NCBI GenBank assembly: GCA_021792255.1
Contig: JAJYUZ010000004.1
Span: forward strand, 64,001 to 128,000
Reading direction: 5' to 3'
Source of the DNA: Thermoplasmata archaeon
GTDB lineage: Archaea; Thermoplasmatota; Thermoplasmata; Thermoplasmatales; GCA-001856825
DNA length: 64,000 nucleotides
The position numbers were made by a program, and so were the translations under genes. Below, piece after piece: positions 14,362 to 46,211 of the stretch. The notes below the pieces were generated by a model that was given only the letters and a program-made list of their open reading frames with translations, was not told the DNA's origin and searched no databases. Numbering within the stretch: the first letter of the stretch is position 1; the number at the start of each line of letters is the position of its first letter.

Positions 14362-14552
14362 GTTGACGGCAAAAGCCGATGCTATGACGATTATCGAAAT
14401 TACGGTGACTGTGACCAGTGTTATAGCCTTTAATTTCTCACCCTGTGCAGATTAATGACTGCGGGATTTGATACTGTTTCGGTTTAAAACTTTAGTCGTT
14501 TTATGAACCTCCTTTCTATATAAGATAGGGTCTCATAACGACCTGAACTCGA

Positions 14553-14627
14553 TGGGACCGCCGAGATTTGAACTCGGGTCACCAACACCCCAAGCTGGTA
14601 GGATGGTCCAATCTACCCTACGGTCCC
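14553..14627 (-). tRNA. tRNA-Pro (GGG)
   Basis: Cloverleaf GGGACCG...CGGTCCC-A; anticodon arm CCAGC-TTGGGGT-GTTGG; GTTCAAATC T-loop. Confidence 0.95.
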
Positions 14628-19611: not shown

Positions 19612-22600
19612 ATGATAATAAGAGGTAATAATGAGTACAATCTGGAACAATATCTGGATCCGTTGGTCCTGGAATGGTTCACATCCAAGTACAACAACGC
19701 AACAACGGCTCAGAGAATTGGGATTCCTCTTATTCATCAAAGAAAGAACGTCCTGATTTCTTCTCCGACTGGAACAGGAAAGACTCTTTCTGGCTTTTTG
19801 GTAATCATAAATGAGTTGTTCCTTCTCGCCAAACAGAACAAACTTGAAGACAAGATATATTGTGCATATGTCTCGCCATTGAAGGCACTTGCAAACGATA
19901 TTCACAGGAACCTTGAAGTCCCGCTGGAGGAAATCAGGGAACTGGCAGAGGTCAAGGGAATTCACATTCCAAAGATCAGAGTGGGAGTAAGGTCTGGAGA
20001 CACTAGCCAATATGTCAGGCAAAAGATGAATAAAACGCCGCCGCACATCTTCATCACGACTCCAGAGTCACTGGCCCTCGCTCTCTTCTCACCAAAATTC
20101 AAAGAGAAATTCAGAGGGGTGGAATTCCTCATTGTCGACGAGATCCACGATCTTGCCTCAAATAAGAGAGGAGAACTACTCAGCCTGATCATCGAATTTC
20201 TTCAGCACGGCAGGGGTACAATCACCAGAATAGGTTTATCCGCAACGACTGAACCCATCGATGAATTAGCAAAATTCCTGGTCGGAAACGTCGACAACGT
20301 GGATGTGCACATTGTCGAAGCAGAATCGAACAAGAACCTCGATATGAAAGTGATATGCCCGGTCTCTGACCTGTTTTCGGCTCCCCAGGAACAGATAAAT
20401 GAGAGGACCTATGACATAATCGAGTCGATGGTCAAAGAACACACCACGACTCTCGTGTTCACAAACACAAGAAGTGGTGCGGAAAGGGTGTCATCAAAGC
20501 TCATAGAGAGAGGTATTATGGACCTCGAAGCACACCATTCGAGTCTGTCCAAGGAGTCGAGATTCAACGTCGAGGAGAGATTGAAGAAGGGAGAACTCAA
20601 GTGCGCGGTTTCTTCCACTTCTCTTGAGCTTGGTATAGACATCGGGAGCATAGATTTGGTAGTCCAGGTCGGCTCCCCAAAGGGCATCGCAAAGGGGCTT
20701 CAGAGAGTTGGCAGATCGGGGCACTCCGTCTTCGCCACAGCGAAAGGACGTATCATTCCAATGGACATCGACGACCTTGTCGAATCACTCGTCCTAGTGA
20801 AAGCTGCTAAGGCTAAGAGGCTAGATCGATTGACGATACCCAGGAACTCTCTCGACGTCCTGAGCCAGTTCATAGCAGGAATCTCACTGGAAAAGAAGTG
20901 GAGAGATGAGGAAGCTCTCCAGCTCGTGAGGAAGACATACTGCTACAAAGATCTCAAAGAAGAGGATTTCTTGAACGTCCTCAACTATCTCTCGGGAGGC
21001 TTCGAGGAAGGGAACGTTTACTCCAAAATCTGGTGGGACAGGAAGGAACACACCTTTGGAAGGAAAAAGAGCACCAGACTGATATATTTCACGAACGCCG
21101 GCACCATCCCAGAAGAAGCAGACTACGATGCATACTCAGTAGACAACAGGCACCTCGGTGCACTGTCGGAAAAGTTCGTCGAAAAACTGCATAGGGGAGA
21201 CATATTCGTTCTTGGTGCAAGGACGTACGAGTTCCTAAGAATGAGAGGGAACAAGGTGTTCATCAAGGATGCATCTGGTAGAAAACCGACAGTCCCATCC
21301 TGGGTAGGAGAAATGCTTCCTAGGACGTTTGACTTATCAATAGAGATCGGAAAATTCCGGAAGGCACTGGAAGAGAGAATGAAAAATGGGATTGCAGAAG
21401 ACTTCCTCAAAAATGAGTACGCAGCCGACGAGAACAGTGTGAGAAGCGTCATTTCCTACATCACCAACCAGATGGATTATGGAGTGCCTACAAACGACAG
21501 TCTTCTGATAGAGGGCTACATAGACAAGGCGGGCCAATTCTCGATCATATTCCACTTCGCTTTCGGCAGAAGGGTCAACGATGCACTAAGTAGAATTATA
21601 GCATTCAACATCTCAAAGAACTTCTCAGTCAACTCAAGAATATCCCTGACCGACGATGGTTTCATGCTCACTTTCAACAGGCGAGTGGAAGTAGCCAAGA
21701 TTAATGAATTGCTACCAACGATAACGATTGGAGGATCGCTCAGAAGTGCGGTCAAATCGACCGAACTTTTCAAGCAGAGATTTAGACACTGCGCCACTCG
21801 CTCATTTATGGTACTAAGAAGATACAGAGGCAGAGAAGTATCGGTTGCGCGACAACAGCTCAGGAGCGAGAGAGTTCTCGACATACTTTTCTCTATGGAG
21901 AATTTCCCGATAATCGAAGAAACGTTCAGGGAGATTGAGGGGATCGTTATGGACCTTGATAATTCGGGGAAAATAATGACTTCCATCAGAAATGGGGAGA
22001 TAAAGATATTCTCAAGGGACTACACGAGATATCCGAGTCCATTTGGTTTCGGAATCATATCGACCGGGATCACTGACGTAGTTCTCATGGAGGACAAGAG
22101 TGCAATCATCAGGGAACTGCAGGAAGCACTTCTTGCCAAGATGGGCTTGGAGAGCAGTTCAGAAGTAGACATAGAATCACTAATGAATTATCAGGAATCA
22201 AAACAGCTCTTGGACTCGGACGGAGGACTACTTGGTTTCCTCGGCAATGCAGGGTTTGCCGATCTCTACTCGACGGTGTCGTTCTCGCCTCTTAAGAAGG
22301 TTGACGACCCTGAAGAATACTACAGCAAGCTTTCCGAACACCTATCCACTGGAGAAATAGTTCCGGTGTTCACCGGAAAGACGGTGTATACACTGAAAGA
22401 GAACGTTCCCTACCTGGCATCAGTGTTCATACAGGAGAGCGACAGCAAAATCAATTTCAAGGACGGCGAGAGCACAAACGCGATTGCGAAGAACAACAAC
22501 CTGGATCCAGAGTCGACTCTGTTAATTCTCAGAAAGATGGAAAGGGCGTACAAAGCATTCATCCTGAGACACGGAACGAGGGTAAAATGGTACAACAGAA

Positions 22601-24708
22601 CGGTCGAGAAAGCGAATCGAGGGGAATCGGCAGAAAAAGTAGTCCAGTGGCTACTCTGGCAGAATGGTCCCCTGACGTTCAATGAGATTGTCGATAGAAC
22701 GGGGCAGATGAACGAGCTTGAGGAAGCAATAGAGAACCTTACTGCTAAGAAGATAATAGTATCTGGTAGATTTTTCCCGAAGAGGGACAGACAGTACATA
22801 CTCTCCGATGACCTCAAGAAGCTGAGATCTAGTGACGAAGTCGAAATCGGAAGAATAAGGTTGAACAGAGCTCTCGAGAAAAAAGGAGACAGCTATTTCG
22901 ACAAATACCTAGTCGCAAGCAACGTGAATTCCCTCCTTGTCAGGGGATACGCCGATCAAGAAATAAATTCAAAGCGGATAGTTTACGGTCACTTTGCGGG
23001 TTCAATCAGGGGGTACTTCGATGAAAGGTATCTTCCACAATTTATCTCCCTGAACAGGGTAGAGGAGCTGAGCAAGGACGAAAAGGAGACAATCGATCTA
23101 GTTAAAAAAGGAAAGTATGGGATGGAAGACATAGAGGAGAAGACACTGGAGAAATTGGTCAAAGAGAACTATATAGTCTCAAAAGACGGAAGATCGATAG
23201 CTGTAAACGTGGGGCCAGCGGAACCAAAAGAGGTGCTGGAAAAATTTGTCGACACGTACGGACCCATAAGCATCGAGGAAATGGTGCAGACATTTGGAGT
23301 AACTGTCAGGAAATATATTGGAAAACTTGACGTCAAAAAGATGGTGAGCGGGCACTCCACGTACCTCTACTCCAATCTGGCTTTCACCAAGCAGAAGGGG
23401 GTCATAAGCAGAAAGGACCCTCTGTTTTTAATAAACAAGGAAAGGATAGAAGCGGAGACTGGAGAGGGAATGACTTACTTCCTTCTGGAAGATGGAGCCA
23501 TCAAACTGGGGATCGAAACCGCCACGGAGAATGGTATACTTGAGATATTCGAAATTACCGGAGATTATGCCAGCAATTTCGATCAGGTGATGGAAGTAGT
23601 GAACGAGATTTCAAACCGTGAAAAGTTTGATTCTCTCGTGATAAGAAAGATTAGCTTTCCGATTCCAGACAAAGAGAGGATGGATAAAATAGGTTACTCG
23701 ATGATAAGGAATTTCATGGTCAAAGGAACCACAGTTGAAGACTTTTCTCTTGAAGAGGAACAAATGATCCACTACCTTGTCAAGAAGCATCACCTATCAA
23801 ACGGATATAAGCACCCTGATCCAGTGATCGCACTCGGCTCAATCCTGGGATACAAGGGCAACTTTGAACTGATGATGAAGTGCGAAAGGAGCATTGATCT
23901 GGACAAACTGGTGATGAGCAATTTGGCAGTACAGGGGTACCTGATCGATGGTTCGCAGGGGTATCTGAGTAAAGAGAATGTTTCCCTTCTGGCTTCTGTG
24001 AAATACAATTCCCTCAGCGATAATGCAAAGAAGCTCTACGAGATAGTAAAGAAGATGCCGGCGCTCTCGAGAGAGGCGATAGTGGAGCATTCTTGCTTTA
24101 CCATCAACCAGACGCTGAATTATATCAACGAAATGATGAAAAAAAGCATCATTTACAAAGACAATAAGGGAAGATATCGTCTTACCCTCCTACAAAACAA
24201 CAGTGAAGATGCAATGGACAGAGTCACGAGAGAGCTTGGTATTTTCAACGGCAGAATTCTTTCCTCCATACTGGGGCACTCGATAAACGGGAGCTTCATC
24301 TCGGGCTATCTTTCGAGGGGTATGGAGCAAAGCAAATTCCAAAGAATTCTCCCCCTGAAGTCGAGGGACGAGATAATGTACTGCTGGAAAAACGAGACGT
24401 TCTCACCGCCCACGGGGAGTGAGGACGTGGTACTCTTACCAAGAACGCTTGCAATGGAACACGTCTCCTTGATACTTGGATGGAAACCGCAAGGGAAAAT
24501 GGTGCTCCTGAGGGATGGTTACGACCCGATATTCTTCAAGGGAAAGAGATCAGGAAACAAGCTTTCGATAACCACGGAACTGAGGGATGAGACCAAGAAG
24601 AGGATATCGAAGTATTTACAGGCAATTAACATTAAACTCGAGAAACCCGAGAACGACGAAGTCACAGAAAAATGGTACGAACAGATGATTCCGAAGAAAT
24701 ACAAGTGA
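19612..24708 (+). CDS. lhr: Lhr-family ATP-dependent helicase, long form with C-terminal extension
   Basis: SPTGTGKT, SPLKAL.ND, TTPESL, DEIH, SAT, HHSSLS, LELGIDIG, QRVGRSGH, GTIP, FGRRVNDALS. Confidence 0.93.
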   Translation: MIIRGNNEYNLEQYLDPLVLEWFTSKYNNATTAQRIGIPLIHQRKNVLISSPTGTGKTLSGFLVIINELFLLAKQNKLEDKIYCAYVSPLKALANDIHRNLEVPLEEIRELAEVKGIHIPKIRVGVRSGDTSQYVRQKMNKTPPHIFITTPESLALALFSPKFKEKFRGVEFLIVDEIHDLASNKRGELLSLIIEFLQHGRGTITRIGLSATTEPIDELAKFLVGNVDNVDVHIVEAESNKNLDMKVICPVSDLFSAPQEQINERTYDIIESMVKEHTTTLVFTNTRSGAERVSSKLIERGIMDLEAHHSSLSKESRFNVEERLKKGELKCAVSSTSLELGIDIGSIDLVVQVGSPKGIAKGLQRVGRSGHSVFATAKGRIIPMDIDDLVESLVLVKAAKAKRLDRLTIPRNSLDVLSQFIAGISLEKKWRDEEALQLVRKTYCYKDLKEEDFLNVLNYLSGGFEEGNVYSKIWWDRKEHTFGRKKSTRLIYFTNAGTIPEEADYDAYSVDNRHLGALSEKFVEKLHRGDIFVLGARTYEFLRMRGNKVFIKDASGRKPTVPSWVGEMLPRTFDLSIEIGKFRKALEERMKNGIAEDFLKNEYAADENSVRSVISYITNQMDYGVPTNDSLLIEGYIDKAGQFSIIFHFAFGRRVNDALSRIIAFNISKNFSVNSRISLTDDGFMLTFNRRVEVAKINELLPTITIGGSLRSAVKSTELFKQRFRHCATRSFMVLRRYRGREVSVARQQLRSERVLDILFSMENFPIIEETFREIEGIVMDLDNSGKIMTSIRNGEIKIFSRDYTRYPSPFGFGIISTGITDVVLMEDKSAIIRELQEALLAKMGLESSSEVDIESLMNYQESKQLLDSDGGLLGFLGNAGFADLYSTVSFSPLKKVDDPEEYYSKLSEHLSTGEIVPVFTGKTVYTLKENVPYLASVFIQESDSKINFKDGESTNAIAKNNNLDPESTLLILRKMERAYKAFILRHGTRVKWYNRTVEKANRGESAEKVVQWLLWQNGPLTFNEIVDRTGQMNELEEAIENLTAKKIIVSGRFFPKRDRQYILSDDLKKLRSSDEVEIGRIRLNRALEKKGDSYFDKYLVASNVNSLLVRGYADQEINSKRIVYGHFAGSIRGYFDERYLPQFISLNRVEELSKDEKETIDLVKKGKYGMEDIEEKTLEKLVKENYIVSKDGRSIAVNVGPAEPKEVLEKFVDTYGPISIEEMVQTFGVTVRKYIGKLDVKKMVSGHSTYLYSNLAFTKQKGVISRKDPLFLINKERIEAETGEGMTYFLLEDGAIKLGIETATENGILEIFEITGDYASNFDQVMEVVNEISNREKFDSLVIRKISFPIPDKERMDKIGYSMIRNFMVKGTTVEDFSLEEEQMIHYLVKKHHLSNGYKHPDPVIALGSILGYKGNFELMMKCERSIDLDKLVMSNLAVQGYLIDGSQGYLSKENVSLLASVKYNSLSDNAKKLYEIVKKMPALSREAIVEHSCFTINQTLNYINEMMKKSIIYKDNKGRYRLTLLQNNSEDAMDRVTRELGIFNGRILSSILGHSINGSFISGYLSRGMEQSKFQRILPLKSRDEIMYCWKNETFSPPTGSEDVVLLPRTLAMEHVSLILGWKPQGKMVLLRDGYDPIFFKGKRSGNKLSITTELRDETKKRISKYLQAINIKLEKPENDEVTEKWYEQMIPKKYK

Positions 24709-40307: not shown

Positions 40308-42314
40308 ATGGACACTGAGGAGATCAGGAAGAGAATCGACAGAATTGGTGAAGACGAGAAACCCGAGAGCCTGAAATTCTCCGTCAAGTATATGGACTCA
40401 TCCGTTGATCCCAACTCTAATTTTTACAAGTTCTGCAATGGAAAGTGGATCGATACGCATCCCATACCTGACGACAAGATTCAGTGGAGTGCTTTTATGG
40501 AACTCTCTGAAAGAAATAGATATGTACTGGGAAAGATCGTTGAAGATTGCGCATTCTACGATAATCCAGATGATCCAATTAAGGCTCAGGTTGGAGCATT
40601 TTATCTCTCTGCCATGGACACGCTGACAATCGAACGACTGAAGTTTGAACCAATCAGAGAATTCGTCGAGCTCATTGAAAAGATAAAGGATAGTGGAGAG
40701 ATAATTCTAACGATATCCAAACTACATGGAAAGGGAATTTCCGCAATGTTCTCCTATTCCTCAGATTCTGACGAAAAGGACAGCTCCACATATGCCTACT
40801 ACCTGAAACAGGGTGGTCTGTCTTTGCCCAACAGGGATTACTATTTTCTCGAACCGTTCGAAGATATCAGGAAAGATTTCAAAAGGCACGTAGCTAACAT
40901 CTTCGTCCTTTATGGCTATTCGGAGGAAGATGCGAAAAAGTCCTCAGACATTGTCTTTGACACTGAAGTGGCACTGGCGAAAGCTAGCAGGACTCCTGTA
41001 GAACTCAGGGATCCGGAGAAGAACTATAATAGATTTGAGTTACGTGAACTGGAGCAAAGTTTTCCAAACGTTAATATCAAGAGATACCTATCAGAGGTAC
41101 AACTGCCGCCAGTGAAGCATGTGGTGGTAAGACAACCTGAGTTTTTCGAAAACCTTGAGAAAATGCTTGACCAAATACCGCTTTCATCGTGGAAGGTGTA
41201 TCTCATCTGGAAGATTCTGAATTTCGCATCGCCCTATCTTCACGAGGAAGTGGCAAACGAGCACTTTTACTTCTTTGAAAGAAAACTCTTCGGTCGCAAG
41301 AAGCAAGAAAAAAGATGGAAACGAGTTGTGAATTTGATCGATGGTGAAATCGGTGAGGCACTCGGGAAGTTGTACGTCGATCAGGAGTTCGGAGAGGAAT
41401 CCAAGAGAAGGATGGAAGTGTTAATCAACGACCTCAAGAACGTTTTTGCAGATAAGCTGGACAAGTCGGATTGGATGTCAGATAAAACCAAAAAAATGGC
41501 ACTGGAGAAGTTTAGCAAGTTCCGTTCAAAGATCGGATACCCTACCAAGTTCATAGACTACTCTTCAATCAGGATTTCGCCAGACGATCTCTTTGGAAAC
41601 ATTTTGAGATCGGAAGAATTTGAGTTTGAAAGGGAAATAAGGCGGATCAATTCACCGGTAGACAAGGAACTATGGCAGATGACGCCTCCAACAGTCAACG
41701 CATATTTTTCACCGACAGAGAACGAGATCGTGTTCCCGGCCGGGATACTCCAGCCACCATTCTTTGACCCGAACATGGATGACGCAGTAAACTATGGTGC
41801 CACCGGAGGGGTAATAGCACACGAGATCACTCACGGATTCGACGACGAGGGAAGAAAATACGATCTCAACGGAAACCTAAATGACTGGTGGTCACCTGAA
41901 GACATCAAAGAATTCAGTGAGAGGGCAAAATCAGTAGCGAACCTCTACGGATCGCTTGAGGCACTCCCAGGGTTGCACGTCAACGGCGAGTTGACGCTCG
42001 GAGAAAACATCGCGGATCTCGGTGGAGTCAGCATAGCATTCGAAGCGCTGGAAAAAAGGCTCAATAGAGACCCGTCTCTCAGAAAAAACATAGATGGCTT
42101 AACTCCAGAGCAAAGATTTTACATCGCGTGGTCACAGAGCTGGAGGGCTAACGTGAGAGAAGAAGCAATAAAGTGGCAGGTATCTAACGATCCGCATTCT
42201 CCTGATAATCTCAGAGGAGAGGTACCGGCAAGAGTTCACTACGCTTTTGCCAGTCATTTCAAAGGTCCAGATGGAACCAAGAAGAAACAGGACACCATAA
42301 TTTCAATCTGGTGA
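40308..42314 (+). CDS. M13 (neprilysin/PepO) metallopeptidase
   Basis: VNAYF, FPAGILQPPFF, HEITH zinc motif, GENIAD, DPHSP. Confidence 0.95.
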   Translation: MDTEEIRKRIDRIGEDEKPESLKFSVKYMDSSVDPNSNFYKFCNGKWIDTHPIPDDKIQWSAFMELSERNRYVLGKIVEDCAFYDNPDDPIKAQVGAFYLSAMDTLTIERLKFEPIREFVELIEKIKDSGEIILTISKLHGKGISAMFSYSSDSDEKDSSTYAYYLKQGGLSLPNRDYYFLEPFEDIRKDFKRHVANIFVLYGYSEEDAKKSSDIVFDTEVALAKASRTPVELRDPEKNYNRFELRELEQSFPNVNIKRYLSEVQLPPVKHVVVRQPEFFENLEKMLDQIPLSSWKVYLIWKILNFASPYLHEEVANEHFYFFERKLFGRKKQEKRWKRVVNLIDGEIGEALGKLYVDQEFGEESKRRMEVLINDLKNVFADKLDKSDWMSDKTKKMALEKFSKFRSKIGYPTKFIDYSSIRISPDDLFGNILRSEEFEFEREIRRINSPVDKELWQMTPPTVNAYFSPTENEIVFPAGILQPPFFDPNMDDAVNYGATGGVIAHEITHGFDDEGRKYDLNGNLNDWWSPEDIKEFSERAKSVANLYGSLEALPGLHVNGELTLGENIADLGGVSIAFEALEKRLNRDPSLRKNIDGLTPEQRFYIAWSQSWRANVREEAIKWQVSNDPHSPDNLRGEVPARVHYAFASHFKGPDGTKKKQDTIISIW

Positions 42315-42765
42315 TCCGAATATGAGAGGAAATTCTTGAGTGCTTGGGAATGCGAGCGGAGAGTTTGTGAAGGAAGCAACCAGGAAACTTCTGGACTCTG
42401 TCTGTTGATTCTGATTTAGGATATGAGGCAAGGGCATTCCTTATTTGGATATAGGACAAGAAGTAAATTCTATCCGTTATTACATCGGAATCAACTCTGC
42501 TGGTAAAGCTTGTCTCTCACTGCAGCAATTGTATCTGGTATCACCTTGTTGAAATAGATGTCGTATTCATACGCCATGATTATTGGGCCAACAAGCCACT
42601 TCAGACTGTGATGTCTTTCTTTTGAAGTAAGATCATCAGGTCTCATCTCACATAATGATTCGGAGTTCTAGTGAGGAAACAGAACTTCTCTCGTTTGTCC
42701 TGTCTTTCTTTAACAATACTTTGAATGTTTTACGGCCATGAATCGTGGAAAATCTACTTATAAAG

Positions 42766-42780
42766 ATTGTATATATTTAT
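42766..42780 (+). promoter_or_regulatory. Probable TATA box for the leader/beta-helix gene transcript
   Basis: tgtatatatttat preceded by purine-rich aaaga; about 130 nt upstream of the CDS. Confidence 0.5.
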
Positions 42781-42849
42781 CAGTAGGCTTTTGTGCTTGG
42801 AAATCAGGTGCCGAATTGAGCCCAGGATCTGAGACGGGCTTACGTCGTA

Positions 42850-42908
42850 CCCGCCCGATGAGGTGTGCTGGTTACATTCCGAAATCCCTAGGGATAGCGG
42901 GAAACCGC
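42850..42908 (+). ncRNA. Candidate type I hammerhead ribozyme (U4C core variant)
   Basis: Stem I CCCGC/GCGGG; core CCGAUGA; stem II GG-UGU/ACA-CC; GAAA; stem III AUCC-CUAG-GGAU; cleavage triplet AUA; loop II complementary to the 3' flank. Confidence 0.7.
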
Positions 42909-42909
42909 A

Positions 42910-43944
42910 GTGAATGCTATGGGAATGATGAATACCAGCAAAGTCATGATGATTGCAGTCGTGCTTGTCACCACCTCTTTTGTAATATTATCCGTGCCGG
43001 TCTATGCGCAGGGGGGCACGAATGGGGGGAACTCAGATGCATATGTATGCGCCCATTATTTTTCCCCAGCTCAGGTGTACGACCTGAGCACGTCTACCTG
43101 CACAATTTCTGGTCCAGTAGTGCTTTCTATCGATTCGCCAAGGACCGTTAATTTTCACACAAACATTGTTGTGACCAACGGGGGATCTCTTACAATTCCA
43201 CAAGGTGACTCCTTTTCAATATTAGGGAGCTTCACGATCGGCGGCAATGGACAGCTTCTCTCTGGGGGCAAGTTCGATAACATTGGCTCCACTACAGTGC
43301 AATCAAGCGTGCAGGAAAGCACTGGATATGCTGTTAATTCCATTTTGAACGGAGATGGAGGAGTATTCATTAATCACGGTACTTTGTCTTTAAGTAATTC
43401 ACACGACACTTTCGGTTTTGAGAATTACGGCAGATTTGTAAATCACGGTACAGTTACTATCGACAACACAGACACCCTTGCCTCCACCTATGGTCTAAGT
43501 TTTGGTTTCGTCAATTATGCTGGAACCTTCACGAACTACGGAACGATAACAATCTCAAACACAGGGTTTACCGTTGGCCTGGTGAACGGGCACAAAGCTC
43601 TCCTTAATAACTACGGCACAATCGATATAAGCTCTGGTCTTAATAGCCATGCTGGTCTCTGGAACCAAAACGTCTTCAACAATTATGGGACTGTAACTAT
43701 TACAGGCTGCGGAGGCTATGAGATCTATGAGAATGGGCCTGCTGGTGTAACCATAAACAACTACGGCACAATCATAATAAGCAATAAGGCGAGTTCATCG
43801 CAGATTGACACCGGCATCTATATCCATGCGGGAGATTTCTATAACTACGGATCAATCTACATCTGGGATGCTACCGCTGAAGCTTACGCAGGAACCATTA
43901 CAGAAGTAAACGGAGGCAGTATATCCTATTCTTCTCCACCATAA
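42910..43944 (+). CDS. Secreted beta-helix/adhesin-like protein
   Basis: Signal peptide; many (F/L/I)xN(Y/H)GT(I/V) repeats; rich in G, N, T, S. Confidence 0.7.
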   Translation: MNAMGMMNTSKVMMIAVVLVTTSFVILSVPVYAQGGTNGGNSDAYVCAHYFSPAQVYDLSTSTCTISGPVVLSIDSPRTVNFHTNIVVTNGGSLTIPQGDSFSILGSFTIGGNGQLLSGGKFDNIGSTTVQSSVQESTGYAVNSILNGDGGVFINHGTLSLSNSHDTFGFENYGRFVNHGTVTIDNTDTLASTYGLSFGFVNYAGTFTNYGTITISNTGFTVGLVNGHKALLNNYGTIDISSGLNSHAGLWNQNVFNNYGTVTITGCGGYEIYENGPAGVTINNYGTIIISNKASSSQIDTGIYIHAGDFYNYGSIYIWDATAEAYAGTITEVNGGSISYSSPP

Positions 43945-43975
43945 GTGGAAAAGAAACGCTGTTACCTAATTTGCG

Positions 43976-43991
43976 ATGCGAGCGCCGGGAT
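43976..43991. repeat. att site copy (16-bp direct repeat ATGCGAGCGCCGGGAT of the tRNA-Gly 3' end)
   Basis: Identical to 46138-46153. Confidence 0.9.
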
Positions 43992-44027
43992 ATACGCCTT
44001 TTTGTGTAAATCCCAGGAGGCTCTTGC

Positions 44028-44174
44028 ATGAAGGAAAAATTGCCCTATGCAAGGGTCGCAAGGGAATTAGGGATATCCAAGGATGCAGCTAAGAGACTTT
44101 ACCAGGCTAACAAAGGGGAGTTCCCGTTCGACGAACCCCTAAATTCCGTTGAACTTTTGGGGGTGTGTGAGTGA
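44028..44174 (+). CDS. Small HTH protein (48 aa), excisionase/regulator-like; absent from the ORF track
   Basis: GGAGG RBS; MKEKLPYARVARELGISKDAAKRLYQANKGEFPFDEPLNSVELLGVCE. Confidence 0.7.
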   Translation: MKEKLPYARVARELGISKDAAKRLYQANKGEFPFDEPLNSVELLGVCE

Positions 44175-44223
44175 TGGGCGGATTCAATGAAGAAATTAAT
44201 ACCTGTATCGAAATCTCATCAAT

Positions 44224-44460
44224 GTGGACCAACAGACTAAGAGCAAACCCTCGAGATGGAACTTCCTTACAGTAATCATTTTCGAGCTTGTGTCAGTGGA
44301 CCTCACTATTTATGAAATTTTCGAGAACTTGAAGATATACCCTTCAAATGAGTTCAACGCAACAATTGTAATGATTCTCTCAGTGGTCGTCTTCTTCTTT
44401 CTCTGGTTGATAGGCAGGGAGGCGTTCGAGGTGTTGCTCAAGTTGAGAGAGCAAACGTAG
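44224..44460 (+). CDS. Small two-TM hypothetical protein
   Basis: Two hydrophobic segments; inside the element. Confidence 0.5.
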   Translation: MDQQTKSKPSRWNFLTVIIFELVSVDLTIYEIFENLKIYPSNEFNATIVMILSVVVFFFLWLIGREAFEVLLKLREQT

Positions 44461-44723
44461 TTCATCGAGCTAATTTCGTTTCCATCCCAAGAATCTCTTC
44501 TGAAGATATCTCAACAATCAGAAAAATTGTGACTAAATTTAGGACTTGGTTCTGAAGTTAGAAAAATTCAGGCTTTTCGATATTTCGTATGATCTCTTCT
44601 GTAAGGCCCTCGATCGAGAGATCTCCTGCAGCTGCCCAAAATATCGAGAAAATAGGGCAAAAGAGGTCATTCTGGGGACACTATGACAGGAATATTGGTC
44701 TCTCAGCTCTTCCATCAACTAGT

Positions 44724-44752
44724 ATTCCGAAAACTGATACGTTATTCGGAAT
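44724..44752. repeat. Inverted repeat/hairpin ATTCCGAA-AAC...GTT-A-TTCGGAAT
   Basis: 8-bp perfect inverted repeat plus 3 inner pairs, between convergent ORFs. Confidence 0.5.
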
Positions 44753-44798
44753 CCTCTAGAGAATTTTGAGAGAAATATGTTCAGTTCATTTTTGTATT

Positions 44799-45161
44799 CT
44801 ATTTCATGACGCCTTTGAGTCTTACTGAGTAGATTATCGCAACAATTGCAGATGCTGCTATCAGCGTTATCCAAAGAGCAAGAAGGAAATGTTCCGCACC
44901 GGTGAACCAGTTAGACCAGAATGGCGGGTCGCTTACCACACCGTTCTTGAATTGATTGTAGATAATCCACCAATAGCTGTAGAAGAATCTTTTTACCACA
45001 AGACTTATCCCTGGTGAATATTCGAACACAGTTATTGGGGAAAAGAATCTGAAGAAATATACTCCGAAGGACAAACCAGAAATGTAGAAAATGATAACCG
45101 CTTCAAGTACTACGAAGATCGAGGTCATCTTCACTATTTTACTCTTTCTTTTGTCCATCAT
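44799..45161 (-). CDS. Hypothetical membrane protein
   Basis: N- and C-terminal TM segments; AT-rich TATA-like tract upstream. Confidence 0.6.
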   Translation of the reverse strand: MMDKRKSKIVKMTSIFVVLEAVIIFYISGLSFGVYFFRFFSPITVFEYSPGISLVVKRFFYSYWWIIYNQFKNGVVSDPPFWSNWFTGAEHFLLALWITLIAASAIVAIIYSVRLKGVMK

Positions 45162-45239
45162 TTATTAATCAAGAATGTATATTAATACCTTCTAATAGAC
45201 CTGAATGTGTGAGAGGTTCGTAGACGCGGAGTCATAAGC

Positions 45240-46157
45240 ATGCAGGAGTTCCGGATATGGGCAGTTGGCTCTGGAAGATTTGCATTTTCTACAGTAGAGA
45301 GACAGGTCCGGAAGCTGCGTTTCATGTCAAGGCACTTCGACTTACTGGACCCATCCATGACAGACCTCTACAAATACATCAACGAAGAGTTGAGGAGGGG
45401 CAAGAAAAGAAAATCCCTCAACAACGAGATGAAGGACCTGAAGGCCTGGTGCGAGTTCAACAAGATCGTTATGGATTTCCCCAAGTTCAAGAGGGAACCG
45501 TCGCCGGAGCCGTGGATCCCTACCGACGACGATATCGACAGAGTCCTTGCCTATTGCGACAGGATGAAGGTGAGGTCGATAGGCATCAGGAACAAGGCCT
45601 TCTTCTCCGTCCTGATCTACGGAGGTCTGAGGATCGGCGAGATGCAGAAGCTCAACGTCGAGGATATCAGGGACATCGGCCTCTACGTGAGGAGCGAGAA
45701 ACTTGAGAAGGACAGGACCATAGGCCTTCCTGACGATGTCATTTCGCTATTGAAACTGTATATCAGGGACCACAGGACCGATAGTGACCCCAAGGTCCTG
45801 TTCACCACTCCGAAGGGAAGGATGACTTATCAATATATGAGAAACGTCGTTTACAAGGCCGGACACTCCCTCGGTATCCCGCAACTGCACCCTCATTCGT
45901 TCAGGCATTATTGCGCAACTTCTCTCTTGCGGGGCTATAGGGGCCTTCCTGGAATAGATGTAAGAGAGGTGCAAATCCACTTGGGGCATGCCCGCTTGGA
46001 GACGACTGCTATATATACCCACATATCACAGGCGAGCGTGGCAGGAAAGGTGAACGGCGTATACAACGCCAGGTTTCGGAAAGAGGTCGATGAAATCATG
46101 ACAGGGTCAAAAAGAATCGAATCCGACCATGCACTTCATGCGAGCGCCGGGATTTGA
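45240..46157 (+). CDS. Tyrosine recombinase/integrase
   Basis: Catalytic set R (GLRIGE), K, HSFRH, LGH, Y (TAIYTH) intact; stop codon lies in the antisense tRNA. Confidence 0.95.
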   Translation: MQEFRIWAVGSGRFAFSTVERQVRKLRFMSRHFDLLDPSMTDLYKYINEELRRGKKRKSLNNEMKDLKAWCEFNKIVMDFPKFKREPSPEPWIPTDDDIDRVLAYCDRMKVRSIGIRNKAFFSVLIYGGLRIGEMQKLNVEDIRDIGLYVRSEKLEKDRTIGLPDDVISLLKLYIRDHRTDSDPKVLFTTPKGRMTYQYMRNVVYKAGHSLGIPQLHPHSFRHYCATSLLRGYRGLPGIDVREVQIHLGHARLETTAIYTHISQASVAGKVNGVYNARFRKEVDEIMTGSKRIESDHALHASAGI

Positions 46158-46211
46158 ACCCGAGGCATGAGCTTGGCAAGCTCACGTGTTACCAGGCTAC
46201 ACCACGCTCGC
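46139..46211 (-). tRNA. tRNA-Gly (GCC)
   Basis: GCGAGCG...CGCTCGC-A; anticodon arm TGAGC-TTGCCAA-GCTCA. Confidence 0.96.

What the first reader, a model, noticed from the sequence alone, without database searches (positions are those of the whole stretch)
42817..42930. Hammerhead ribozyme in the 5' leader of a secreted beta-helix gene
Seen: stem I CCCGC(42850-54)/GCGGG(42897-901); core C-C-G-A-U-G-A (canonical CUGANGA with U4C; C3-G8 kept); stem II closed by G-C with a 2-nt bulge; GAAA; stem III from the perfect palindrome ATCCCTAGGGAT; cleavage triplet AUA, so predicted cut after 42896. Loop II GCUGGUU can pair with AACCGC (42903-08), a pseudoknot type known in natural hammerheads. A competing GCGG-GAAA-CCGC hairpin would disrupt both stem I and the pseudoknot, and another hairpin lies at 42817-42842. 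The cut would fall about 13-30 nt before the candidate start codons and downstream of a TATA box. Hammerheads are rarely reported in archaea. Inference: self-cleavage or a structural switch processes this mRNA. The U4C change and the bulge could instead mean decay.
Basis: partly seen in the sequence, partly recalled or inferred. Interest (0 to 1): 0.9.

Follow-up and report, generated by a model that had tools for sequence, protein, structure and literature searches.

The report
Hammerhead look-alike in a conserved leader
A stretch in front of an archaeal secreted-protein gene can be drawn as a hammerhead self-cutting RNA, but it breaks one essential core position and fails the standard models, so it is most likely a look-alike, although it sits in an unusually well conserved leader that deserves a simple cleavage test.

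Summary
The motif exists exactly as described at 42850-42901 (+). Three things argue against a hammerhead. The core has C instead of the near-invariant U4. No Rfam hammerhead model matches, even at E<=10 on 181 nt. The hammerhead fold is a tiny fraction of the predicted ensemble once the leader is longer than the 52-mer. Matches at least this good arise by chance 0.145 times per genome of this size, or 0.013 with a Watson-Crick-only stem I. The leader is single-copy, and neither it nor its gene was found in 167 other genomes of the order.

One result favours it. A natural variant contig in two metagenome runs differs at only 5 of 98 leader positions, against 32 of 153 in the adjacent coding part. 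All 5 fall where a hammerhead tolerates change. Two of them (42865, 42877) form a compensatory pair in the stem II register predicted before the variant was seen. However, the flanks outside the motif are even better conserved.

Verdict: chance look-alike inside a conserved, probably structured leader of a gene on a tRNA-Gly island, about 0.6. Genuine C4-variant hammerhead, about 0.2.

The parts
42850..42854 (+). Stem I, 5' strand (CCCGC)
   Evidence: Pairs with 42897-901. Unchanged in the variant contig.
42855..42861 (+). Core-like heptamer CCGAUGA (CUGANGA with U4->C)
   Evidence: Unchanged in the variant.
42862..42880 (+). Stem II hairpin. Best register has 2 pairs, a 1x1 mismatch, 3 pairs and a 7-nt loop
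   Evidence: -1.2 kcal/mol. In the variant 42865 G>C and 42877 U>G turn G.U into C-G; 42878 U>C lies in the mismatch.
42881..42884 (+). GAAA (G12 A13 A14 A15.1)
   Evidence: Unchanged in the variant.
42884..42895 (+). Stem III hairpin from the palindrome ATCCCTAGGGAT (4 pairs, loop CUAG)
   Evidence: -2.6 kcal/mol. Ensemble probability 0.79-0.97 in the longer leader contexts, 0.61 in the isolated 52-mer. The only change is 42890 A>U in the loop. The palindrome is unique in the genome.
42896..42896 (+). Predicted cleavage-site nucleotide H17 (A); a cut would fall between 42896 and 42897
   Evidence: Position in the drawn motif only. No cleavage data exist.
42897..42901 (+). Stem I, 3' strand (GCGGG)
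   Evidence: Unchanged in the variant.
42903..42907 (+). Possible pseudoknot partner of loop II (AACC + G pairing with 42869-73)
   Evidence: The chance of >=4 Watson-Crick pairs between a 7-nt loop and a 12-nt tail is 0.116. The nested MFE uses the same pairing in an extended hairpin.
42897..42908 (+). Competing GCGG-GAAA-CCGC hairpin; it starts exactly at the predicted 3' cleavage product
   Evidence: Ensemble probability 0.002-0.37 depending on transcript ends. The variant's 42902 A>G keeps a GNRA loop.
42817..42842 (+). Upstream 7-pair hairpin
   Evidence: probability 0.55-0.82. By my reading of the variant's 30-nt loose end, the changes in the 5' arm are one-sided: G.U->A-U, C-G->U.G, and one end pair is lost.
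42824..42921 (+). Conserved leader block: 5 differences in 98 nt against the variant contig
   Evidence: P(<=5 of 98) is 1.0e-5 at the 21% divergence of the flanking coding part.
42758..42779 (+). AT-rich TATA-like runs; likely promoter, giving a leader of roughly 115-140 nt
   Evidence: Genome-wide, TATA-like motifs peak 25-30 nt before start codons, and none lies there for this gene. The transcription start itself is inferred.
42919..43944 (+). Gene for a secreted repeat protein (signal peptide, then short-strand all-beta repeats). ATG 42919 and 42928 are kept in the variant; 42925 is not
   Evidence: AlphaFold2 model pLDDT 73.7, all-beta after an N-terminal helix. Only weak, non-significant matches to parallel beta-helix proteins. 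No Pfam or PHROG family in the local copies.
42351..42366 (+). Degenerate copy (12 of 16, first 9 exact) of the tRNA-Gly 3'-end repeat; left edge of the inserted island
   Evidence: read by eye. In the closest relative, tRNA-Gly sits 38 nt after the M13 peptidase stop.
43976..43991 (+). Exact 16-nt direct repeat of the tRNA-Gly 3' end (att-like)
45240..46157 (+). Tyrosine integrase of the right-hand island segment
   Evidence: Pfam PF00589 at 3.2e-29. PHROG integrase at 2.9e-35.
46139..46211 (-). tRNA-Gly(GCC), the integration target; its 3' end carries the second exact repeat at 46138-53

Best explanation
The 52-nt motif is a real near-match to a type I hammerhead, but it is most likely not a working ribozyme. 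It lies inside a block of about 100 nt in the 5' leader (42824-42921). That block is under strong constraint and is GC-rich, with several mutually exclusive short helices: the hairpin at 42817-42, the hairpin at 42862-80, the palindrome hairpin at 42884-95, and the GNRA hairpin at 42897-908.

The most likely function is a non-catalytic structured leader that sets the translation or stability of the mRNA for a secreted beta-repeat protein. The gene is cargo of an island inserted at tRNA-Gly. On this reading the hammerhead-like junction sequences are coincidence.

Shown: the motif; the absence of any covariance-model match; the chance rate; the island structure; and conservation of the block in one relative, with one compensatory pair. 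Inferred: that the block is transcribed as a leader from the TATA-like region, that it acts as RNA, and what it regulates.
For: Covariance models:
- Rfam at gathering thresholds on the whole window finds only 4 tRNAs.
- At E<=10 on 181 nt there are 5 weak matches and none is a hammerhead. Anything above about 10 bits would have been listed, and the hammerhead cut-offs are 34-48.5 bits.
- Within the genome, Hammerhead_1 scores two other sites at 15.9 and 15.0 bits and does not list this one, with 150 of 266 candidates scored.

Core: U4 is C. In comprehensive mutagenesis, all single mutants in the CUGA turn had low activity except the C3/G8 swap (PMC9901934, passages). Perreault et al. say U4C considerably decreases activity in vitro (PMC3088659, Discussion passage).

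Chance: 0.145 matches per genome, 0.013 with a Watson-Crick stem I. The genome also holds 2 one-mismatch type III look-alikes and no canonical-core match in any topology.

Folding:
- The hammerhead fold is -10.4 against an MFE of -14.3 kcal/mol for the bare 52-mer.
- Its ensemble fraction is 2e-2 for the 52-mer and 3e-3 to 1e-8 in leader-length transcripts. An extended hairpin on the palindrome takes 0.36-0.89.
- The + strand fold of 42810-42935 has z=-1.19; 27 of 200 shuffles fold as well.

Clade: 0 of 150 sampled genomes of the order reach the cut-off for Hammerhead_1 or Hammerhead_II.

Conservation is not specific to the motif. The 26 nt before it (42824-49) and the 13 nt after the pseudoknot partner (42909-21) have 0 changes, while the motif plus partner has 5.
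Against: In the variant contig, all 5 leader changes fall at positions a hammerhead tolerates. For 4 independent events, P=0.011 over the 59-nt motif plus partner, or 0.024 if only the variable middle is considered. The core, GAAA, both strands of stem I, both arms of stem III and the pseudoknot bases are untouched.

42865 G>C with 42877 U>G is compensatory in the stem II register that one search gave before the variant was seen. The thermodynamically favoured extended hairpin instead loses a pair through a double change (U77-A02 becomes GxG).

U4C is one of the few core variants with a natural, viable precedent, a viroid (PMC3088659). The context is an integrase-linked island, and prokaryotic hammerheads are often near integrases and prophages (PMC3088659 section 6; PMC6155905).

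I cannot name the non-catalytic function. No known RNA family matches the block.
Confidence: 0.6

Rival explanations
1. It is a genuine, conserved type I hammerhead with a C4 core variant. A 4-5-bp pseudoknot between loop II and the 3' tail of stem I stabilises it. It cuts the leader after 42896, slowly or only co-transcriptionally. The 3' product then begins with a 5'-OH at G42897 and refolds at once into the GCGG-GAAA-CCGC hairpin. That would block re-ligation and could protect the mRNA's 5' end.
For: All elements are in the right order with the right spacing. G10.1-C11.1, A15.1-U16.1, H17=A and C3/G8 are kept. The chance rate is 0.0015 per genome once a Watson-Crick stem I and the pseudoknot are required.

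The variant contig keeps the core, stem I, stem III and the pseudoknot, and it compensates in stem II. About 40% of natural hammerheads are predicted to use a stem I / stem II pseudoknot, stem II can be very weak, and a U4C variant is viable in a viroid (PMC3088659). The site lies in a tRNA-linked integrase island.
Against: No covariance-model match. U4C gives low activity in the assays read. The fold is 3e-3 to 1e-8 of the nearest-neighbour ensemble in leader-length transcripts; that model does not count the pseudoknot.

There is only one comparator sequence, and the flanks outside the motif are more conserved than the motif. No hammerhead above cut-off was found in 150 genomes of the order, and no second ribozyme flanks the gene.

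From recall: hammerhead rates fall with falling pH. The holders are mine-drainage, tailings and sediment samples, so the cytoplasm may be acidic. That last step is inference.
Confidence: 0.2
2. The conservation has nothing to do with RNA. Either the block is conserved as DNA, for example an operator built on the 12-bp palindrome or another promoter-proximal site, or it is a short recombination mosaic between co-occurring island variants. The hammerhead-like drawing and the single compensatory pair are then both coincidence.
For: A perfect 12-bp palindrome lies 24 nt before ATG 42919, and both half-sites are kept in the variant; only a central base changes. The two forms co-occur in runs X6 and X9, and the gene sits on a mobile island. 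The RNA fold is not more stable than shuffles (z=-1.19).
Against: The palindrome is unique in the genome, and the relaxed form ATCCCNNGGGAT has only 2 sites, so no regulon is visible. The conserved block is far longer than one operator. The 5 internal differences argue against a very recent exchange. G.U->C-G is compensatory only on the + strand RNA.
Confidence: 0.15

Closest known systems
Type I hammerhead ribozyme (Rfam Hammerhead_1, RF00163)
   Same: The order of elements: stem I open, the CUGANGA-like strand, a closed stem II with G-C next to the core, GAAA, a closed short stem III with an A-U first pair, and a non-G cleavage nucleotide.
   Different: C at position 4. It scores below the listing threshold of about 10 bits, against a 34-bit cut-off. 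Stem II is 19 nt long with an internal mismatch and worth -1.2 kcal/mol. The fold is not the predicted minimum.
Prokaryotic hammerheads in prophages and integrated elements, often with a stem I / stem II pseudoknot (Perreault et al. 2011, PMC3088659)
   Same: The site lies on a tRNA-linked integrase island upstream of a poorly conserved gene. A 4-5-bp loop II / tail pairing is possible.
   Different: Those examples match the consensus core almost without exception, and several often flank one gene. Here there is one copy with a core deviation and no partner ribozyme. The integrase belongs to the neighbouring island segment, on the other side of an att-like repeat.
Natural U4C hammerhead variant of a viroid (cited as ref. 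30 in PMC3088659; I read only that Discussion passage)
   Same: The same core substitution, reported as weak in vitro yet sufficient in vivo.
   Different: That was a variant within a replicating viroid population whose hammerhead is otherwise canonical and proven. Here nothing is proven, and C4 is the only state seen in the two forms.
Ordinary structured 5' leaders and 5'-proximal stabiliser hairpins of prokaryotic mRNAs (a general class, recalled)
   Same: A conserved, GC-rich, hairpin-forming block between the promoter region and the start codon, with alternative pairings.
   Different: No known family matches. The regulatory logic is unknown. Most first genes in this genome look leaderless, so a long conserved leader is itself unusual here.

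Membership tests
Hammerhead ribozyme | Three helices around a junction in the order I - core - II - GAAA - III - H - I | tested here: met
   It can be drawn with 5, 5 (+1 mismatch) and 4 pairs. It is a drawing, not the predicted fold.
Hammerhead ribozyme | Conserved core strand C3 U4 G5 A6 N7 G8 A9 | tested here: not met
   The sequence is CCGAUGA, so U4 is C. Both natural forms carry C.
Hammerhead ribozyme | G12 A13 A14, an A15.1-U16.1 pair, H17 not G, and a G10.1-C11.1 pair | tested here: met
   GAAA 42881-84, A42884-U42895, A42896, G42862-C42880.
Hammerhead ribozyme | Score at or above the curated cut-off of an Rfam hammerhead covariance model | tested here: not met
   No hammerhead family was listed at gathering thresholds or at E<=10 on 181 nt. 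The genome-wide searches with RF00163, RF02276 and RF00008 do not list the site. HH9 and HH10 were covered only.
Hammerhead ribozyme | Tertiary contact holding stems I and II parallel (loop-loop contact or pseudoknot) | tested here: inconclusive
   4 Watson-Crick pairs plus 1 G.U are possible between 42869-73 and 42903-07 and are unchanged in the variant. The chance of such pairing is 0.116. The geometry was not modelled.
Hammerhead ribozyme | Conservation of the core with covariation in the stems among relatives | tested here: inconclusive
   There is one comparator only. The core and stems I and III are unchanged, so they say nothing about pairing. Stem II has one compensatory pair. No other relative was found.
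Hammerhead ribozyme | Site-specific self-cleavage giving 2',3'-cyclic phosphate and 5'-OH ends | not testable with these tools
   No RNA run was listed for this DNA. No biochemical data exist.
Archaeal C/D box sRNA (considered because of weak Rfam hits) | Boxes C, D', C' and D in order, with guides of about 12 nt | tested here: not met
   The best hits score 7.5-12.1 bits against cut-offs of 35-45. Most rest on the ATGATGA of the Met codons at 42925-31, and the sR55 hit rests on the GAUGA of the core itself. No CUGA lies at the right spacing (by eye).

The most novel reading that the evidence does not exclude
An archaeon from mine-drainage habitats carries, on a tRNA-Gly island, a conserved hammerhead whose core has C instead of U at position 4. 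A loop II / 3'-tail pseudoknot holds it together. It trims about 100 nt off the leader of a secreted-protein mRNA. The message is left starting, with a 5'-OH, exactly at a GNRA hairpin. If the cytoplasm is acidic, a protonated C4 could supply the N3-H contact that U4 normally makes. That would be a habitat-specific solution to an otherwise crippling core change. The last point is speculation.
Probability: 0.2. Interest if true: 0.7.

Novelty: not a real feature. Interest (0 to 1): 0.3.

Why it matters
If the ribozyme reading were true, it would add a hammerhead to a clade in which I found none: 0 of 150 genomes for each of two models. It would also be a natural, conserved C4 core outside viroids, and a concrete case of a hammerhead processing a cellular mRNA leader in archaea. 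All of this is testable with one transcription and cleavage experiment.

As it stands, the useful results are negative and methodological. A one-mismatch hammerhead drawing with weak stems is expected about once per 7 genomes of this size, so such drawings should not be trusted without a model hit or covariation.

"Not a real feature" refers to the ribozyme only. The conserved 98-nt leader block is real and unexplained.

Tried and rejected
RNA evidence: no RNA holder was listed for 42300-44000, so expression and RNA ends could not be examined.

More relatives of the leader or gene:
- Protein scan of genome contigs: 49 pattern hits, none a relative.
- Protein scan of metagenome contigs with P0002: 114 pattern hits, none a relative.
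- A 20-nt window stretch in metagenome contigs gave 2 loci, both unrelated GC-rich sequence sharing only the 20-mer, lying within long open reading frames. The same stretch gave 0 in genome contigs.
- Viral contigs by protein and by a 23-nt pattern: 0.
- Plasmid and phage collections by blastn: no match.
- The 168 genomes of the order by protein: only G000.
- The same genomes by leader DNA: only 15-33-nt chance matches, best E=0.004.
- 401 genomes of the class: only distant hits at <=35% identity, and nothing from Rfam upstream of the best one.
- A covariance model built from the candidate's own hammerhead drawing (R1): 87.7 bits on itself and <=20.1 bits elsewhere in 149 other genomes. Those three hits lack C3 and other core bases.

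Rejected readings:
- A 26-nt 88% match on contig C7 lies inside a 441-codon ORF, so it is chance.
- C/D box sRNA (see membership test).
- An upstream extension of the gene: an in-frame TAG at 42895-97 stops it.
- The overlapping 137-codon frame 42738-43151 starts before the TATA-like region, and the variant's changes show no codon-position pattern in it. I checked this by hand and considered it unlikely, not disproved.
- A K-turn reading of GAUGA...GAAA: considered by eye only and not pursued.
- A regulon for the palindrome: it is unique in the genome.

Other limits:
- The bacterial-type promoter and terminator scan is not applicable to an archaeon.
- Earlier findings of the scan were not open.
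- The supplements of PMC3088659 (Dataset S1, Figures S6-S7 on active and inactive core variants) could not be seen. They may bear on how often U4C-like variants occur.
- I did not build the variant's sequence for folding or for pair counting. All statements about it are read position by position.
Full report
**What is in the sequence.**
- Stem I: CCCGC 42850-54 with GCGGG 42897-901.
- Core strand: CCGAUGA 42855-61.
- Stem II: a 19-nt hairpin at 42862-80, closed by G-C.
- GAAA: 42881-84.
- Stem III: the 12-nt palindrome at 42884-95, read as a 4-pair hairpin whose first pair is A-U.
- A42896 as the nucleotide before the predicted cut.

The GCGG-GAAA-CCGC hairpin (42897-908) and the hairpin at 42817-42 are also there. 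There are two corrections. First, the best stem II register is not a 2-nt bulge. It is two pairs, a U x U mismatch, then G.U, U-A and G-C with a 7-nt loop, worth only -1.2 kcal/mol. Second, the proposed pseudoknot is 4 Watson-Crick pairs plus one G.U (42869-73 with 42903-07).

**Model tests.** Rfam 15 at gathering thresholds finds only four tRNAs in the 64-kb window. A permissive search of 42780-42960 (E<=10, all 4227 families) lists five weak matches, to one miRNA family and four C/D box sRNA families, at 7.5-13.7 bits. None is a hammerhead family. Since a 10.2-bit match was listed, the candidate scores below roughly 10 bits against every hammerhead model. The cut-offs are 34, 37 and 48.5 bits for the three models I also ran on the whole genome.

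In those genome-wide runs Hammerhead_1 gives two sub-threshold hits elsewhere, at 15.9 and 15.0 bits on contig C3, and not this site. Only 150 of 266 first-look candidates were scored. Hammerhead_II and Hammerhead_3 give nothing.

**Chance.** I wrote a descriptor that accepts anything at least as good as the candidate. It requires <=1 mismatch in the six specified core bases, a G-C-closed stem II hairpin of <=-1.2 kcal/mol, GAAA, an A-U-closed stem III of <=-2.6 kcal/mol, a non-G at position 17, and >=5 contiguous pairs in stem I.
- In the real 1.587-Mb genome the candidate is the only hit, and no site has a canonical core even with looser stems.
- In 200 genomes simulated from an order-2 Markov model there were 29 hits, or 0.145 per genome.
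- Without the stem I requirement the simulations give 12.6 hits per genome, against 12 in the real genome. So there is no enrichment of hammerhead-like cores.
- Requiring five Watson-Crick pairs gives 0.013 per genome. Adding a >=4-pair loop/tail complement (probability 0.116) gives 0.0015.
- The type II and type III permutations add 0 canonical and 2 one-mismatch look-alikes in this genome.

For one genome the candidate is uncommon. For a scan of many thousands of genome-equivalents, look-alikes of this quality are expected in numbers. That last statement is my inference from these rates.

**Folding.** The hammerhead secondary structure is -10.4 kcal/mol, against an MFE of -14.3 for the bare 52-mer. 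Its ensemble fraction is 2e-2 there. With realistic 5' and 3' extensions it is between 3e-3 and 1e-8.

Stem III is robust, at 0.79-0.97 in the longer leader contexts (0.61 in the isolated 52-mer). Stem II and stem I are not. Once 42906 is transcribed, an extended hairpin centred on the palindrome dominates at 0.36-0.89. It uses the 'pseudoknot' bases as an ordinary outer helix. The nearest-neighbour model cannot credit the hammerhead with its pseudoknot or tertiary contacts, so these fractions overstate the deficit somewhat. The leader as a whole is not more stable than shuffles: z=-1.19, and 27 of 200 shuffles fold as well. The - strand has z=0.04.

**Context.** The genome is archaeal. aCPSF1 scores 835 bits and archaeal LonB 867 bits, both over their cut-offs, within the window. 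The DNA is held by mine-drainage, mine-tailings and sediment metagenome runs from three studies.

The downstream gene (ATG 42919 or 42928 to 43944) encodes a protein with an N-terminal signal-peptide-like helix followed by short-strand all-beta repeats. The AlphaFold2 model has pLDDT 73.7 and pTM 0.77. It has no Pfam or PHROG family in the local copies. Its structural matches are all to parallel beta-helix proteins but are non-significant: 0 matches at E<=0.001, best 0.021. So 'secreted beta-helix' is plausible but not proven.

The gene lies on an insertion.
- In the closest relative that has the neighbouring M13 peptidase (76% identical), tRNA-Gly(GCC) follows that gene after 38 nt.
- Here 3.8 kb intervene. 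They are bounded by an exact 16-nt repeat of the tRNA's 3' end at 43976-91 and 46138-53.
- A degenerate third copy (12 of 16, first 9 exact) lies at 42351-66, 36 nt after the peptidase stop (read by eye).
- The right segment carries a tyrosine integrase. The left segment carries the beta-repeat gene and its leader.

Among 1031 ORFs of >=200 codons, TATA-like motifs peak 25-30 nt before the start (95 and 48 in the two bins, against 6-33 elsewhere). SD-like motifs peak at -12. This gene has no TATA-like motif at that distance. The nearest AT-rich runs are at 42758-79. A leader of about 115-140 nt containing the motif is therefore likely, but it is inferred.

**Relatives.** The leader is single-copy in its genome. 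The protein was not found in the other 167 genomes of the order. In 401 genomes of the class there are only hits of <=35% identity, with no Rfam match upstream of the best one.

The big protein database holds one close relative, P0002 (80% identical), and one distant one at 32%. Its DNA could not be fetched. The protein and 20-mer scans of the metagenome, genome and viral collections, and blastn against plasmids and phages, returned nothing related. Leader DNA against the 168 genomes gave only 15-33-nt chance matches. A covariance model built from the candidate's own drawing gave nothing credible in 149 other genomes.

No hammerhead above cut-off was found in 150 sampled genomes of the order with Hammerhead_1 or Hammerhead_II. 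For the type II search the tool warned that nothing rang anywhere, including the controls.

**The one natural comparator.** Laying the contigs of four DNA runs on 42500-43100 showed, in X6 and X9 (same study), a second 1717-nt contig. It aligns to 42824-43074 with 37 differences. Its amino-acid changes match P0002 (by hand).

Only 5 of the differences lie in the 98 leader positions 42824-42921: 42865 G>C, 42877 U>G, 42878 U>C, 42890 A>U and 42902 A>G. The other 32 lie in the 153 coding positions that follow. In codons 42928-43041 I count by hand 9 synonymous and 6 non-synonymous codon changes, which is roughly 0.33 differences per synonymous site. P(<=5 of 98) is 1.0e-5 at 21% divergence and 2e-11 at 33%. 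Upstream of 42824 the contig's 30-nt loose end is still homologous, but it differs at 7 of 30 positions. So a conserved block of about 100 nt exists.

All five changes fall where a hammerhead tolerates change: inner stem II, loop III, and the linker after stem I. For four independent events P=0.011, or 0.024 if only the variable middle 42865-42902 is considered. 42865 and 42877 convert G.U into C-G in exactly the stem II register that one search had produced before the variant was seen. The thermodynamically favoured extended hairpin fares worse. Its U77-A02 pair becomes G x G by a double change, although U78.G01 improves to C-G.

Against a hammerhead-specific reading, the 26 nt before the motif and the 13 nt after the pseudoknot partner have no changes at all. 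The motif is therefore the least conserved part of the block, and something other than a 52-nt ribozyme must be under selection as well. There is only one independent comparator, because X6 and X9 show the same contig.

**Literature read.** Perreault et al. 2011 (PMC3088659; I read the abstract, section 8 and passages of sections 6, 7 and 11) report the following:
- At least three archaeal hammerheads.
- Many bacterial ones near integrases and prophages.
- Pseudoknots in about 40% of cases.
- Very weak stems II in some.
- Rare core variants.
- A warning that consensus-like sequences arise by chance in large databases.

Roberts et al. [quoted passage not shown] The 2017 review PMC6155905 (passages) notes the persistent link of prokaryotic hammerheads with phage-derived DNA. 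A search for 'hammerhead ribozyme' with 'Thermoplasma' gave 3 papers, none about a hammerhead in such organisms judging by title and abstract. I did not establish the organism's taxon by name.

**Weighing.** Before the comparator, a one-mismatch drawing with a weak stem II, no model hit and an unfavourable fold would be dismissed. Chance look-alikes (0.013-0.145 per genome) far outnumber any plausible rate of core-variant hammerheads in a clade where none was found.

The comparator raises the odds considerably. The block is clearly constrained, and the substitution pattern is compatible with the hammerhead drawing and supports its stem II. But the pattern supports hairpins II and III rather than catalysis. 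The conservation extends beyond the motif. U4C is a damaging change in the assays read.

From recall, hammerhead chemistry slows at low pH. That would matter if this organism keeps an acidic cytoplasm, which I infer only from its habitat.

My estimates:
- About 0.6: a look-alike inside a conserved, probably structured, non-catalytic leader.
- About 0.2: a genuine C4 hammerhead.
- About 0.15: a DNA-level element or a recombination mosaic.
- The remainder: unassigned.

A single cleavage assay would settle the main question.

Noticed in passing
window 42351-46153: A tandem insertion at tRNA-Gly(GCC). An exact 16-nt repeat of the tRNA 3' end lies at 43976-91 and 46138-53, and a degenerate copy (12/16) at 42351-66. 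The right segment (about 2.2 kb) carries a tyrosine integrase whose 3' end overlaps the tRNA, plus two small ORFs without family matches (44224-44460 +, 44799-45161 -). In the closest relative the tRNA directly follows the M13 peptidase gene.
   Followed up: yes
window 42824-43074 (runs X6, X9): The variant contig (1717 nt) has 4.9x and 4.3x the depth of the contig matching the window (243.5 vs 49.7; 26.1 vs 6.11). The near-constant ratio in two samples of one study could mean a more abundant sister strain or a multi-copy replicon carrying a paralogous island. This is not resolved.
   Followed up: no
window 42901-42916 (run X3): In X3 the assembly breaks inside the conserved block: one contig ends at 42916 and another starts at 42901. 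This hints at alternative sequence contexts sharing this short stretch in that sample.
   Followed up: no
window 42921-42960: Weak Rfam matches to archaeal C/D box sRNA families (7.5-12.1 bits, cut-offs 40-45) come from AUGAUGA strings, which are the consecutive Met codons of the signal peptide. These are chance.
   Followed up: partly
G000 contig C3:254488-254565 (-) and C3:113827-113872 (+) (L005, L006): Two sub-threshold Hammerhead_1 matches (15.9 and 15.0 bits, cut-off 34) score better than the candidate. They are presumably chance and were not inspected.
   Followed up: no
window 14552-14567: A 3-mismatch match to the 16-nt att repeat coincides with the 3' end of another tRNA gene (14553-14627, - strand). 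This is ordinary tRNA acceptor/T-arm similarity.
   Followed up: partly
window 19612-24708: A very long ORF (1698 codons, + strand) was seen in the ORF list. It was not examined.
   Followed up: no
whole genome: Start-codon-anchored profiles show both a TATA-like peak at -25 to -30, meaning many leaderless first genes, and an SD-like peak at -12. A leader longer than 100 nt, as inferred for this gene, is atypical for the genome.
   Followed up: partly
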